From positions 1 to 42,689 of the IMG/VR virus record IMGVR_UViG_2851938318_000009: DNA of 42,689 bases. One strand, 5' to 3'. Each line of letters opens with the position of its first letter. Position 1 is the first letter of the stretch. This DNA comes from a virus. Its lineage: Duplodnaviria > Heunggongvirae > Uroviricota > Caudoviricetes. Below are positions 29,154 through 31,449 of the stretch, in pieces. Below the pieces are notes generated by a model, which saw only the letters and a list, made by a program, of their open reading frames with translations, did no database searches and was not told the DNA's origin. A program made the translations under genes and the position numbers.

Positions 29154-29408
29154 CTGATGTATGTCTCCGTCACCGCCGACAGAAAATGAAAGTAAAGGAA
29201 AACAAAAAGCCGCCAGTGTCACCCACTGACGGCCAACTCCGGGAGCCGTGATTATGGCATTCAGGCTCTGCTAAAAATGCCAGATAACATTCCGGCCCCC
29301 CTGGTTCAGGTTATAAATGACACAATATCTTGACAACATCCGTCACTGTCTGTCAGAAAATATACCGCCAGGCATAAGTATCATGTGAAATCCAACTATC
29401 CTTTTGAG

Positions 29409-29449
29409 CCAGCACCTCCCCACCGAAAGTCAGTGCTGGCTGTTTTTTT
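29409..29449 (+). terminator. plus-strand intrinsic terminator (unit 1)
   Basis: AGCCAGCAC-loop-GTGCTGGCT followed by T7; the minus-strand reading has no U-tract. Confidence 0.5.
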
Positions 29450-29556
29450 CCTTAATAAAGCATCTGTAACTGAAACAATCCGCATATTGATAATATATTG
29501 ACAGGCATCATTGCTGTCTGTGAAAAATAAGTCTCTACAAACATACAAGGCCTTTT

Positions 29557-29598
29557 AGCCAGCGTCTTCTTTCAGGTCAGTCGCTGGCTCTTTTTTTA
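29557..29598 (+). terminator. plus-strand intrinsic terminator (unit 2), abutting the nanS-p stop
   Basis: AGCCAGCG-loop-CGCTGGCT followed by CT7; paralogous to unit 1. Confidence 0.5.
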
Positions 29599-31449
29599 TT
29601 ATGCTGCCGGTGCATTTATCTCCAGCACCAGACTTTCTATCTCAACGCCATACGCTGCATTTTTTGTAACATCCGTCAGCGTCAGCGCATTCAGTCCCAG
29701 TGTCAGACTGTCTTTTATAACCTGGAATGCCGGGCCAGCCACTCCATTCAGTTTCGGAGTAACCGTGGCACTGCCGGCGGTGAACACCAGCTCCAGCGTC
29801 TGCCAGTCGTTACCGTAATCGCCGAACTCCCCCAGCTTCGTGTTTCCGGCTTTCCTGTGATGCATCAGATTCACTCTGCCGTCAGTGGTCTGAGTGAAGT
29901 ACGACATCAGGAACGGATTACCGGTACCCGTCATCGCCACACCATCAGGAACGGGAGCATCCGTATACAGATAAATCCCCAGCCCGAACTGATTGTTGGT
30001 CAGTGCGCCTGACAGGCGGAACTTACAGGTCAGTCTGCCGCCCTGTGTCAGCAGGGTAATTGCGTCATCCACCGGATGCGTCAGGGACCAGGTTTTATTG
30101 CTCTGCTTGGTGATCTTAAATACACCATCTGACAACTGAATTCCGCCATCCTTAATGCTCCAGCCCTGCGCAGCAGCCTCTCCGGCTGCCGGCAGCAGGG
30201 AGATTGTGCGAACGGACGTATCTGCAGACGGACCCGATGGCGTGTTGCCGCCGGGCGAGGGTTTGATTTCCGGTGCCTTACCACTGATGAAGGCTGAGGT
30301 GCGCCCGGCTGCGTTCAGAATAGCGGTTGCCAGACGATCCGGAATAATGCTCCTGCGCGCCCATGAACTGAAATGTGTCGGGCGGTTTGATGATACCTGG
30401 TTTCCATTCGTTCTCGATGCCGCACCGTAATATCCTGATGCCGGAATATCCGGATCTTCTGCCGGCGCGTTAGTGGCGGTATTGACGCCGTTACCGTCTG
30501 TCATGAAGGGCACAAAATAAACGCCCTCACTCTCCCTGTTTTTGTACGCCCCGTAAATGGTGTTGTACTGGGTGCCGTAGGTATTTTTCCAGTAATACGT
30601 CGTGTCACCACAAATCCACGGCACATCTGCAGCACTGCCACCATGGCACTGCGCGTTAAACACGGAGAGGTCAGCACGAAACTGTGTCAGCATGGCTGTA
30701 AACAGCGCAGGTTGCTGTGCGTGGGTGGCGGCGCTCATGTCAAACTCTCCCTGCATCCAGCAGACGGCCAGCAGAACGTTTTTGGGATTTTTCTGCAATG
30801 CCGCTTTTGTGCGGGAAATCAGGTCCTGATATAACGGTTTACCCACACCCCAGCGTGCCGAATCCTGGCTGGCCCCCGTGTCCGCACTGAATGTCCCCTC
30901 CGCGCCCTGGGTGAATGCCGAACCACCACGACAGCATGGTACCAGCAGGATCCCCGCGTTATTCGGGATATACGGAAGCAGTTTTTTGGCAATATGTAAG
31001 CCCTGGCCGACACAGCCGTACTGCCCTTTGCTCAGGTCTGCCTTCGGATGATTCAGCGTACTCATATCCTGCACATCATGCAGGCAGTGGTCGGCCGGAA
31101 TAATATCGTTATATCTGCAGGCAGCCCCGCCCGGCGTAACTGTACTGCGGCGCGCCAGCTGTTTAATGCGCGGATCCGGAGCATCGTATGAATCCGGCAG
31201 CGGAAGCCCTTCACCGTAAGCCATGGCATTGGACTGCCCGGCCAGTACGATGACGTAGTACCAATCCGGCTCAGTTGCACCACTGACCACCACATCACCT
31301 TCTGCTGTAATCGCCTGCATCAGGGTATAAGGGGTTATGGCCACCGGACTACCAAACGGCTGCCAGCCCTCTTTCAGTTTGTGTGTCAGCTTTTCCGCAA
31401 GGTCTGACGGCGACGCCGCCCTGACAACATCATAATGTTTAAATGTCAT
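29599..31449 (-). CDS. nanS-p: prophage sialate O-acetylesterase NanS-p
   Basis: 616 aa; DUF1737-like N-terminus (MTFKHYDVVRAASPSDLAEKL…) and SGNH/SASA esterase motif VIVLAGQSNAMAYGEG; sits between the late promoter region and the lysis genes as in Stx-type phages. Confidence 0.8.
   Translation of the reverse strand: MTFKHYDVVRAASPSDLAEKLTHKLKEGWQPFGSPVAITPYTLMQAITAEGDVVVSGATEPDWYYVIVLAGQSNAMAYGEGLPLPDSYDAPDPRIKQLARRSTVTPGGAACRYNDIIPADHCLHDVQDMSTLNHPKADLSKGQYGCVGQGLHIAKKLLPYIPNNAGILLVPCCRGGSAFTQGAEGTFSADTGASQDSARWGVGKPLYQDLISRTKAALQKNPKNVLLAVCWMQGEFDMSAATHAQQPALFTAMLTQFRADLSVFNAQCHGGSAADVPWICGDTTYYWKNTYGTQYNTIYGAYKNRESEGVYFVPFMTDGNGVNTATNAPAEDPDIPASGYYGAASRTNGNQVSSNRPTHFSSWARRSIIPDRLATAILNAAGRTSAFISGKAPEIKPSPGGNTPSGPSADTSVRTISLLPAAGEAAAQGWSIKDGGIQLSDGVFKITKQSNKTWSLTHPVDDAITLLTQGGRLTCKFRLSGALTNNQFGLGIYLYTDAPVPDGVAMTGTGNPFLMSYFTQTTDGRVNLMHHRKAGNTKLGEFGDYGNDWQTLELVFTAGSATVTPKLNGVAGPAFQVIKDSLTLGLNALTLTDVTKNAAYGVEIESLVLEINAPAA

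What the first reader, a model, noticed from the sequence alone, without database searches (positions are those of the whole stretch)
29320..29600. Two paralogous plus-strand units, each with a TTGACA-…CTGTCTGT motif and an intrinsic terminator, between nanS-p and the holin
Both units share TTGACA, about 10 nt, CTGTCTGT, an A-rich stretch, and then a hairpin beginning AGCCAGC followed by a T-run. The terminators work only on the plus strand, antisense to the late operon. The second ends exactly at the nanS-p stop. They could be duplicated small RNAs, or elements that block antisense read-through. The -10 elements are weak, so the promoter assignment is uncertain.
Basis: seen in the sequence. 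Interest (0 to 1): 0.5.

Follow-up and report, generated by a model that had tools for sequence, protein, structure and literature searches.

The report
Known prophage small-RNA locus (PasA family)
The two repeated units are real, but they are the already published PasA / EcOnc51-52 small regulatory RNAs that lambdoid prophages of pathogenic E. coli carry between the sialate esterase gene and the holin gene, so this is a correct rediscovery and not a new element.

Summary
Two plus-strand modules lie between the holin S gene (28947-29153, minus) and nanS-p (29599-31449, minus). Each has TTGACA, 10 nt, CTGTCTGT, an A-rich stretch, a hairpin that starts AGCCAGC, and a run of seven T. Both motifs occur twice in the window against about 0 expected.

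Unit 1 (about 29365-29449) is a homologue of PasA, an 85-nt Hfq-dependent sRNA validated by Northern blot in EPEC E2348/69. The published probe matches the unit 1 hairpin with one mismatch. Unit 2 (about 29533-29600) matches two published records: the 3' part of the PasA "minor" 236-nt read-through form, and the Hfq-crosslinking peaks EcOnc51/EcOnc52 of EHEC Sakai.

PasC is the one-unit version of the same locus. The hairpin stems covary. In EPEC the RNA 5' ends lie exactly 35 nt after the first T of TTGACA, which supports these as promoters, but the -10 elements are weak and no primary-end data were available.

One small point seems unpublished: the locus is a tandem pair of paralogues. Whether unit 2 has its own promoter is unproven.

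Novelty: already known. Interest: low.

The parts
29330..29335 (+). Unit 1 candidate -35 hexamer, TTGACA
   Evidence: It is invariant in all 22 distinct unit sequences collected. The PasA and PasC RNA-seq 5' ends in EPEC (743499 and 1290909) align to window 29365, exactly 35 nt from the first T.
29351..29361 (+). Unit 1 candidate extended -10 region, TGT-CAGAAA(AT)
   Evidence: This is my reading. In both units TTGACA is followed by an 18-nt spacer that ends in TGT (TGn), then CAGAAA or GAAAAA. An alternative register uses GAAAAT with a 20-nt spacer. The hexamers are weak, and the sigma-70 scan with 16-18 nt spacers did not list them.
29365..29449 (+). Unit 1 RNA, a PasA-type sRNA of about 85 nt (probably the 'PasA-2' sequence variant)
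   Evidence: It is 87% identical to E2348/69 PasA over 85 nt: 98% in the 3' 45 nt and 75% in the 5' 40 nt. The PasA Northern probe GCCAGCACTGACTTTCGGTGGAGAG is the reverse complement of 29410-29434 with one mismatch. The published seed GCCAGCACCU is present at 29408-29417.
29407..29449 (+). Terminator 1: 9-bp stem, 17-nt loop, G, then T7
   Evidence: Found (I12). The stem covaries across variants. The matching site is annotated as a terminator in phage 434, OL657226.
29498..29503 (+). Unit 2 candidate -35 hexamer, TTGACA
   Evidence: Its geometry relative to CTGTCTGT and the A-rich block is the same as in unit 1.
29519..29528 (+). Unit 2 candidate extended -10 region, TGT-GAAAAA(T)
   Evidence: My reading. 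This is inferred and not tested.
29533..29600 (+). Unit 2 RNA (EcOnc51/EcOnc52 region), predicted about 65-68 nt if it is transcribed from its own promoter
   Evidence: The Sakai Hfq-CRAC peaks EcOnc52 and EcOnc51 map to about window 29532-29609 and 29521-29597, with about 10 nt uncertainty, once the coordinate shift between genome versions is applied. RIL-seq chimeras place E2348/69 743267-743294(-) as the sRNA-side partner (RNA2) with escD. The 5' end at 29533 is a prediction only.
29557..29597 (+). Terminator 2: 8-bp stem, 17-nt loop, C, then T7, abutting the nanS-p stop codon
   Evidence: I9; z = -3.6. It is annotated as a terminator in phage 434. The 3' end of the 236-nt PasA form, 743264, corresponds to window 29600.
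29365..29600 (+). Read-through form equivalent to the 'minor' 236-nt PasA species
   Evidence: Table S6 of Pearl Mizrahi 2021. The window stretch is 93% identical to the E2348/69 236-nt stretch.
29622..29629 (-). GGUGCUGG in the 3' end of the nanS-p coding region, complementary to the PasA seed CCAGCACC
   Evidence: It appears as direct repeat D10. RIL-seq motif sites for PasA lie at the equivalent place in both E2348/69 esterase genes, CUG(A/G)UGCUGGA.
29599..31449 (-). nanS-p (SASA-family sialate O-acetylesterase), the flanking late gene
   Evidence: ORF; annotation of homologues.
28947..29153 (-). Class II holin S (68 aa from ATG 29153), the flanking late gene
   Evidence: MEKITTG.... Homologues are annotated as holin.

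Best explanation
The region is the PasA-family small-RNA locus of lambdoid (Stx-type) prophages. Two tandem, paralogous transcription units lie on the strand opposite the Q-dependent late operon, in the nanS-p to S intergenic region.

**What each unit is.**
- Unit 1 makes an 85-nt RNA of about 29365-29449. It is a PasA homologue, probably the PasA-2 sequence type.
- Terminator 1 has a 17-nt loop and is leaky. Some transcripts therefore run on to terminator 2 at the nanS-p stop codon, giving the 236-nt form.
- Unit 2 carries the same promoter-like block and its own terminator. It is the RNA recorded in EHEC as the Hfq-bound peaks EcOnc51/52.

**How the RNAs work.** They are expressed in the lysogen, when late transcription stops at tR' upstream. 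They bind Hfq through the terminator hairpin and U tail, and they pair in trans with many core and virulence mRNAs. The mapped PasA seed is GCCAGCACCU, the 5' arm of its terminator.

**Shown in homologous loci, by others.** RNA sizes, strand, 3' ends, Hfq dependence and RIL-seq partners.

**Shown here.** Homology, locus architecture, stem covariation, and the fit between the -35 box and the mapped 5' end.

**Inferred.**
- The TTGACA blocks are the promoters.
- Unit 2 is also transcribed on its own, which I put at about 0.55.
- The two-unit locus arose by tandem duplication, or one-unit loci arose by deletion between the hairpin repeats.
For: **Homology and published ends.**
- The window aligns with the E2348/69 PasA and PasC loci.
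- The Zhu/Shabalina/Storz 2026 preprint says pasA and pasC are flanked directly by the sialic acid esterase and holin-lysozyme genes.

**Unit 2 as EcOnc51/52.** The EcOnc coordinates are and the Sakai loci. I checked the coordinate shift between NC_002695.1 and .2 on four markers.

| Marker | Region | Shift |
|---|---|---|
| AgvB1 and AsxR | 1.94 and 1.27 Mb | +128 |
| HnrS | Sp10, Sp12 | +128 |
| STnc100 | Sp4 | 0 |

**Hfq association of unit 2.** RIL-seq chimeras have the unit 2 3' end as the sRNA partner.

**Structure.**
- In the hairpin stem, 3 of 9 pairs change on both sides and 97% of cells are paired, against 19-50% when the partner columns are slid.
- Hairpins plus T7 fold as expected.

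**Promoter geometry.** TTGACA spans -35 to -30 relative to the PasA and PasC 5' ends, which were called independently at the same nucleotide. The lengths this predicts, 85 and 78-79 nt, equal the Northern-validated sizes.

**Distribution.**
- The region is found in 698 of 5426 complete E. coli genomes, at a median of 5 and up to 9 places per genome.
- It is found in 29 phage records, 22 of them Stx1a-converting phages. This matches the published PasA distribution.

**Independent annotation.** The curated phage 434 record marks both plus-strand terminators.
Against: - **No data from this strain.** All expression evidence is transferred from loci that are 93-99% identical.
- **No primary 5'-end data.** I could not read any dRNA-seq results; the PNAS 2020 supplement is not held. 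The preprint states that the PasA 5' end is thought to come from cleavage of a longer transcript, which would make TTGACA part of a precursor and not a promoter.
- **Weak -10 elements.** CAGAAA and GAAAAA lack the -7 T. The alternative registers need 19-20 nt spacers. The consensus scan did not call them.
- **Unit 2 copies are identical in Sakai.** The EcOnc51 and EcOnc52 peaks may therefore share multi-mapped reads, and they could come from the 236-nt read-through RNA. The peak edges are uncertain by about 10 nt.
- **No Rfam family covers these RNAs**, so there was no independent model to test against.
- **Function is unknown** even in the literature.
Confidence: 0.85

Rival explanations
1. 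There is one gene with two terminators. Only unit 1 has an active promoter. Unit 2 is a decayed duplicate whose hairpin serves as the back-up terminator, so every RNA over unit 2 is PasA read-through or a processed 3' fragment of it.
For: Table S6 lists the 85-nt and 236-nt forms with the same 5' end and treats the downstream intergenic entry as part of PasA. Terminator 1 has a large 17-nt loop and a modest hairpin energy, so leakage is plausible. One mapping of the EcOnc51 peak starts about 12 nt upstream of the predicted unit 2 start.
Against: Unit 2 keeps a perfect TTGACA, the same 18-nt spacer ending in TGT, and the A-rich block, although the 10 nt in between and the RNA body have diverged. 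Across 35 distinct two-unit intergenic regions unit 2 is at least as conserved as unit 1. The EHEC peaks were called on unit 2, not unit 1. The Sakai Sp4 copy keeps the whole of unit 2 with an IS629 29 nt upstream of its TTGACA and no unit 1 next to it. Because the unit 2 copies are identical, reads cannot be assigned to that copy.
Confidence: 0.3
2. The units act mainly in cis. They would be antisense RNAs or convergent transcription units that modulate the late transcript across the nanS-p to S junction, affecting mRNA processing or the timing of holin expression. Alternatively they would be insulators that keep plus-strand transcription out of nanS-p.
For: The RNAs are fully complementary to about 236 nt of the late mRNA, and they end at the nanS-p stop codon. 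RIL-seq recovered PasA chimeras with the 3' ends of both esterase genes. A late-strand fragment antisense to the PasA 5' end also appears in the RIL-seq table (743494-743512, +).
Against: They do not overlap the S ribosome-binding site; the PasA 5' end is 212 nt from the S start codon. PasA has 41 RIL-seq partners, drawn from both the core and the accessory genome. The esterase site is a short seed match inside the coding region (29622-29629), which is trans-type pairing. My duplex predictions against the S, R, Rz and nanS-p start regions were not better than shuffles after allowing for 10 tests.
Confidence: 0.1
3. The hairpins are structural elements of the late mRNA (stabilisers or RNase III sites), or the whole pattern is a chance or selfish repeat with no plus-strand transcript.
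For: The hairpins would also form in the minus-strand RNA. The sequences are young and closely related, so conservation alone proves little.
Against: The T runs follow the hairpins only on the plus strand. In homologous loci the published RNA-seq, Northern, Hfq-CRAC and RIL-seq signals are on that strand. Chance is excluded.
Confidence: 0.02

Closest known systems
PasA (pathogenicity-associated sRNA A) of EPEC O127:H6 E2348/69; Pearl Mizrahi et al., Sci Adv 2021 (PMC8550237); distribution in Zhu, Shabalina & Storz, bioRxiv 2026
   Same: It has the same position (esterase to holin intergenic region), strand, promoter-like block, terminator and seed GCCAGCACCU. It has the same two 3' ends 151 nt apart. 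The 3' 45 nt are 98% identical.
   Different: The first 40 nt are only 75% identical. The window carries the type also found in Sakai Sp12, which fits the preprint's description of 'PasA-2' (conserved 3' end, divergent first 40 nt, common in ST11). I could not check this against the preprint's sequences.
EcOnc51 / EcOnc52, orphan Hfq-binding sites of EHEC O157:H7 Sakai (prophages Sp12 and Sp4); Tree et al., Mol Cell 2014 (PMC4104026, Table S2)
   Same: After coordinate conversion both peaks lie on unit 2, next to the esterase stop codon, on the sRNA strand, and both are flagged as having a Rho-independent terminator. The Sakai unit 2 differs from the window's by one base.
   Different: These are only crosslinking peaks. 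There is no Northern blot, no end mapping and no target. The literature lumps them with PasA as 'homologues', although they correspond to the second unit and not to PasA proper.
PasC of EPEC E2348/69 (prophage PP5)
   Same: It has the same promoter block and a PasA-like 5' body. Its hairpin base, AGCCAGCG/CGCTGGCT, and its T run abutting the esterase stop are as in unit 2.
   Different: The PasC locus has one unit (intergenic region about 290 nt), not two (about 445 nt). Its loop and upper stem differ. Unit 2 of the window is only about 60% identical to PasC overall.
AgvB / AsxR 'anti-sRNAs' (Rfam RF02702, RF02703)
   Same: They are short Hfq-dependent RNAs with intrinsic terminators, encoded convergent to the late operon of the same prophages. 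An AgvB copy lies 2 kb away in this window, at 31601-31662.
   Different: There is no sequence similarity. They lie on the other side of nanS-p and act by sponging GcvB or FnrS. The CA-rich 5' region of unit 2 pairs with GcvB no better than shuffled sequence does.
HnrS (EcOnc10-12), a multicopy prophage sRNA that represses hha; Poudyal et al., PLoS Pathog 2026 (PMC13502914)
   Same: It is a multicopy, late-region, plus-strand (anti-late) Hfq sRNA of EHEC and EPEC prophages. An identical copy is in this window at about 26729-26794.
   Different: The sequence is unrelated, it is located downstream of the lysis cassette, and it has a defined target (hha).

Membership tests
PasA sRNA family (unit 1) | Sequence homology to E2348/69 PasA, including the Northern-probe region | tested here: met
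   It is 87% identical over 85 nt and 98% over the 3' 45 nt. The probe matches with one mismatch.
PasA sRNA family (unit 1) | Located between the SASA-family esterase gene and the class II holin gene, on the opposite strand ('> < >') | tested here: met
   The window layout is nanS-p (-), unit (+), S (-).
PasA sRNA family (unit 1) | 3' stem-loop followed by a U tract (intrinsic terminator and Hfq site) | tested here: met
   A 9-bp stem plus T7. The stem covaries.
PasA sRNA family (unit 1) | Predicted seed GCCAGCACCU, which overlaps the 5' arm of the terminator | tested here: met
   It is present unchanged at 29408-29417.
PasA sRNA family (unit 1) | An RNA of about 85 nt that is expressed and stabilised by Hfq | not testable with these tools
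   This is shown only for E2348/69. There are no expression data for this strain.
EcOnc51/52 (unit 2) | Sequence identity with the Sakai DNA under the Hfq-CRAC peaks | tested here: met
   The peaks convert to window 29521/29532-29597/29609. Unit 2 of Sakai Sp12 and Sp4 aligns with one difference. The conversion relies on a shift of +128 (0 at Sp4), verified on four known sRNAs. About 10 nt of uncertainty remains.
EcOnc51/52 (unit 2) | A discrete RNA species with its own 5' end | not testable with these tools
   No Northern blot or 5'-end data have been published for it (the Table S2 field is blank). The promoter is inferred from sequence only.
PasC sRNA (considered for unit 2) | Full-length homology to E2348/69 PasC (79 nt) | tested here: not met
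   Only about 60% identity. Just the hairpin base, the T run and its junction with the esterase stop are shared. Unit 2 is a paralogue, not PasC.
AgvB/AsxR anti-sRNA family (considered) | Match to the Rfam models RF02702 or RF02703, with the conserved roughly 42-nt 3' region | tested here: not met
   No Rfam match in 29150-29700 even at E <= 10. The window's real AgvB is at 31601-31662.
Sigma-70 promoter (both units) | -35 and -10 hexamers 16-18 nt apart, with a transcription start about 7 nt after the -10 | tested here: inconclusive
   The -35 is perfect and lies at -35 to -30 relative to the mapped PasA and PasC 5' ends. With an 18-nt spacer the -10 is TGT-CAGAAA or TGT-GAAAAA (3 of 6, no -7 T). 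The consensus scan did not report it. No primary-end data were available.

The most novel reading that the evidence does not exclude
The PasA locus would be a tandem pair of paralogous sRNA genes, like OmrA/B or PrrF1/2. Unit 2 (EcOnc51/52) would be a separate RNA of about 65 nt with its own promoter and its own unstructured CA-rich 5' seed. PasC and the other one-unit loci would be recombinants between the two units' hairpin repeats. The literature treats unit 2 only as the tail of a 'minor' PasA form, and it explicitly says that pasA copies do not arise by tandem duplication.
Probability: 0.5. Interest if true: 0.3.

Novelty: already known. Interest (0 to 1): 0.2.

Why it matters
It matters little as a discovery. 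These RNAs were found by Hfq crosslinking in 2014, validated in 2021, and surveyed across genomes in 2026.

The finding does show that reading raw sequence can recover genuine sRNA genes, with the right strand and the right 3' ends.

Three small points may help people who work on Pas sRNAs:
- EcOnc51/52 correspond to the second unit and not to PasA itself.
- The mapped PasA and PasC 5' ends sit exactly where the conserved TTGACA predicts a primary start. This argues against the idea that the 5' end is made by processing.
- Two-unit, one-unit and no-unit versions of the esterase-holin spacer coexist (47, 12 and 13 of 72 sampled loci). BLAST surveys with an 85-nt query therefore miss the tandem paralogue.

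The function of these RNAs is still unknown.

Tried and rejected
- **Rfam.** No family covers the region at gathering thresholds. At E <= 10 there were only three chance-level hits.
- **Unit 2 as a GcvB sponge like AgvB.** The duplex energy was -13.0 kcal/mol against shuffles at -13.1 +/- 2.7. The AgvB control was in the top 2%. Rejected.
- **Trans pairing with late-gene start regions.** I tested both RNAs against the S, R, Rz and nanS-p start regions and the nanS-p 3' end. Only the nanS-p 5' region scored at p of about 0.01-0.02. That pairing uses the 3' arm of the terminator and does not survive correction for 10 tests. Not pursued.
- **More distant relatives or other RNAs with the same promoter block.** A sensitive blastn against phages found the same 29 records. 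An exact TTGACA-N10-CTGTCTGT scan of IMG/VR gave only this family plus 76 unrelated chance matches.
- **Other readings of the motif, by eye.**
  - LexA box: wrong spacing.
  - CII site: absent.
  - Sigma-54: the GG-GC spacing is 8, not 10.
  - Sigma-E: no GGAACTT.
  - The GACA...TGTC inverted repeat inside the block remains unexplained.
- **Small ORFs.** The mechanical ORFs are 38 aa (GTG, 29385-29501, +) and 50 and 30 aa on the minus strand. They cross terminator 1 and have no support.
- **Primary 5' ends for Sakai.** The supplement of Sy et al. 2020 is not held.
- **A mistake I corrected.** I first assigned EcOnc51 to unit 1. That was an artefact of the coordinate difference between NC_002695.1 and .2, which I found when HnrS did not line up and corrected.
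Full report
**Setting.** The window is the late region of a lambdoid prophage. The finding's region is 100% identical to several E. coli O111-type genomes. The late genes run on the minus strand.

| Feature | Coordinates | Strand |
|---|---|---|
| STnc100-type tR' RNA | 31663-31853 | - |
| nanS-p esterase | 29599-31449 | - |
| Holin S | 28947-29153 | - |
| Endolysin R | 28014-28547 | - |
| Rz | 27222-27740 | - |
| AgvB anti-sRNA | 31601-31662 | + |

The finding lies in the 445-nt spacer between S and nanS-p.

- The composite promoter-like pattern occurs twice in the window against 0.01 expected.
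- The hairpin pattern occurs twice against 0 expected.
- The best local alignment of the two units scores 33. Shuffles gave 14.8 +/- 2.2 with a maximum of 28.
- The T run of unit 2 ends one base before the complement of the nanS-p stop codon.
- On the minus strand neither hairpin is followed by a T run, so the hairpins can terminate only plus-strand transcripts.

**What is it?** The literature search led directly to named RNAs.

*PasA.* Pearl Mizrahi et al. 2021 (PMC8550237, Table S6) list PasA in EPEC E2348/69.
- It lies on the strand opposite the esterase gene E2348C_0688 and the holin gene E2348C_0689.
- Its 5' end is 743499, its major 3' end is 743415 (85 nt), and its minor 3' end is 743264 (236 nt).
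- It is Hfq-stabilised and confirmed by Northern blot.
- The probe is the reverse complement of the unit 1 hairpin, with one mismatch.

I fetched that locus and aligned it. The whole spacer is collinear with the window. The 5' end corresponds to window 29365 and the two 3' ends to 29449 and 29600. Unit 1 is 87% identical to PasA, with 98% in the 3' 45 nt and 75% in the 5' 40 nt. This pattern fits the 'PasA-2' variant of the Zhu/Shabalina/Storz preprint. That preprint also states that pasA and pasC are flanked directly by the esterase and holin-lysozyme genes.

*PasC.* Its locus has a single unit. The same TTGACA block and a PasA-like body run into a hairpin whose base (AGCCAGCG/CGCTGGCT) and junction with the esterase stop are those of unit 2.

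*Unit 2.* Table S6 notes EcOnc51/EcOnc52 of EHEC Sakai as homologues. Their coordinates (Tree et al. 2014, Table S2) refer to an older version of the genome record.
- I measured the offset to the current record on RNAs that can be recognised by sequence. It is +128 for AsxR, AgvB1 and HnrS and 0 in prophage Sp4, from STnc100 against EcOnc05.
- With these offsets both peaks fall on unit 2. EcOnc52 maps to window 29532-29609 and EcOnc51 to 29521-29597, with about 10 nt of uncertainty. They are more than 70 nt from PasA proper.
- In Sp4 an IS629 sits 29 nt upstream of the unit 2 TTGACA, and no unit 1 adjoins it.
- In the EPEC RIL-seq data the 3' end of unit 2 (743267-743294, minus) appears as the sRNA-side partner in chimeras with escD.

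So unit 2 is also an RNA that has been observed bound to Hfq.

**Architecture across relatives.** I collected 72 esterase-to-holin spacers from IMG/VR and from genome contigs.

| Spacer type | Length | Number of loci |
|---|---|---|
| Two units | 444-448 nt | 47 |
| One unit | 290-301 nt | 12 |
| No unit | 161-162 nt | 13 |

- The one-unit loci end either in the PasC hairpin or in a PasA-like hairpin.
- Phage 434 has the two-unit form, and its curated record annotates both plus-strand terminators.
- Variation among two-unit loci is concentrated in the first 40 nt of the unit 1 RNA. Unit 2 is almost invariant.
- Mosaics of 5'-body types and hairpin types occur.
- The region is present in 698 of 5426 complete E. 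coli genomes, at a median of 5 and up to 9 places per genome. It is present in 29 phage records, 22 of them Stx1a-converting phages.
- No more distant relatives were found.

**Structure.** In an alignment of 12 distinct units, the 9-bp stem is paired in 97% of cells, against 19-50% when the partner columns are slid. Three pairs change on both sides: C-G to U-A, A-U to G-C, and C-G to U-A or U-G. The sequences are related and few, so this is supportive and not decisive. The folds show the terminator hairpins with largely unstructured 5' regions.

**Promoters.**
The consensus scan does not call them.
- Two facts nevertheless favour real promoters. First, both units share the same geometry: TTGACA, an 18-nt spacer that ends in TGT (an extended -10 TGn), then CAGAAA or GAAAAA. 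Only the 10 nt in between have diverged.
- Second, the 5' ends of PasA and PasC were called separately from RNA-seq coverage and fall on the same nucleotide, exactly 35 nt from the first T of TTGACA. The predicted lengths of 85 and 78-79 nt equal the Northern-validated sizes.
- This sits uneasily with the preprint's remark that the PasA 5' end is made by cleavage of a longer transcript. The longer species in Table S6 is extended at the 3' end, not the 5' end.
- I could not obtain primary-end data, so this stays an inference.
- By the same geometry unit 2 would start near 29533 and give an RNA of 65-68 nt.

**How it most likely works.** In a lysogen, late transcription stops at tR', so these convergent genes are free to be transcribed.
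- The RNAs end in a hairpin and U tail that bind Hfq, and they act in trans.
- PasA has 41 RIL-seq partners, drawn from both the core and the accessory genome. Its mapped seed, GCCAGCACCU, is the 5' arm of its own terminator and is unchanged in the window.
- One recurrent partner site lies in the 3' end of the neighbouring esterase genes. The window has it at 29622-29629.
- Terminator 1 leaks, and terminator 2 stops the read-through at the nanS-p stop codon.
- The physiological role is unknown in the literature as well.
- A purely cis-antisense role is possible but less likely. The RNAs do not reach the S start region, and my pairing tests gave nothing convincing.
- A GcvB-sponge role for unit 2 was tested and rejected.

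**Comparison and novelty.**
- Unit 1 meets every testable criterion for PasA.
- Unit 2 is the EcOnc51/52 RNA and the tail of the 236-nt PasA form. It is a paralogue of PasA and PasC but not a member of PasC.
- Neither unit is in Rfam.
- The element is therefore already known.
- The only part that appears unstated is that the locus is a tandem pair of paralogues. The preprint argues that pasA copies are never tandem, with the closest pair 22 kb apart. A BLAST survey with the 85-nt query would miss a 58%-identical neighbour.

**Verdict.** The novelty is 'already known'. Interest is low (0.2).

Noticed in passing
window 26729-26794 (+): This is a copy of the sRNA HnrS (EcOnc10-12), which represses hha. 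It is identical to the Sakai Sp10 and Sp12 sequence and lies downstream of the lysis cassette. It contains CTACCCAATCAGTAC (26746-26760), which I searched for from my memory of the mazF 3' end, and it ends in a hairpin plus T7.
   Followed up: yes
window 31601-31662 (+) and 31663-31853 (-): An AgvB anti-GcvB sRNA (Rfam, 96.5 bits) lies back to back with an STnc100-type RNA, the tR'-terminated PR' transcript related to PasD and StxS. Their 3' ends abut, and no stx genes lie between them and nanS-p.
   Followed up: no
window 29208-29234 (-): A late-strand intrinsic-terminator-like hairpin (10-bp stem, then TTTTTGTTTTC) lies 55 nt upstream of the S start codon. Phage 434 annotates the same site as a terminator. 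The unrelated 'no-unit' spacers keep a hairpin there with a G-C to A-T change on both sides, which I read by eye. It may keep non-antiterminated transcription out of the lysis genes.
   Followed up: partly
window 32569-32685 (+) and 38565-38681 (-): There are two ALIL frameshift pseudoknots with identical Rfam scores. They indicate two copies of an IS3-family element in inverted orientation, bracketing about 5.9 kb of the prophage that includes a DicF sRNA copy at 36570-36621 (+).
   Followed up: no
L081, L088 and L089 (no-unit spacers), last 15 nt before the esterase stop: Spacers that lack both units still end in CTGGCTCACTTTTTA next to the esterase stop. This resembles the 3' arm and T run of terminator 2 and suggests a recombination or deletion scar inside the hairpin.
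   Followed up: no
window 29330-29355 and 29498-29518 (+): Inside each promoter-like block TTGACA and CTGTC(TGTCA) form an inverted repeat (GACA...TGTC). CTGTCTGT is perfectly conserved between the two diverged units, while the 10 nt before it are not. This would suit a regulator-binding site in the spacer, but I have no candidate.
   Followed up: partly
Sakai NC_002695.2 compared with the coordinates in Tree et al. 2014, Table S2: The published EcOnc coordinates refer to the older genome version. They are offset by 0 in Sp4 and by about +128 from Sp5 onward, with a further uncertainty of about 10 nt that depends on strand. Anyone who looks up EcOnc RNAs in the current RefSeq record will land on the wrong feature.
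   Followed up: yes
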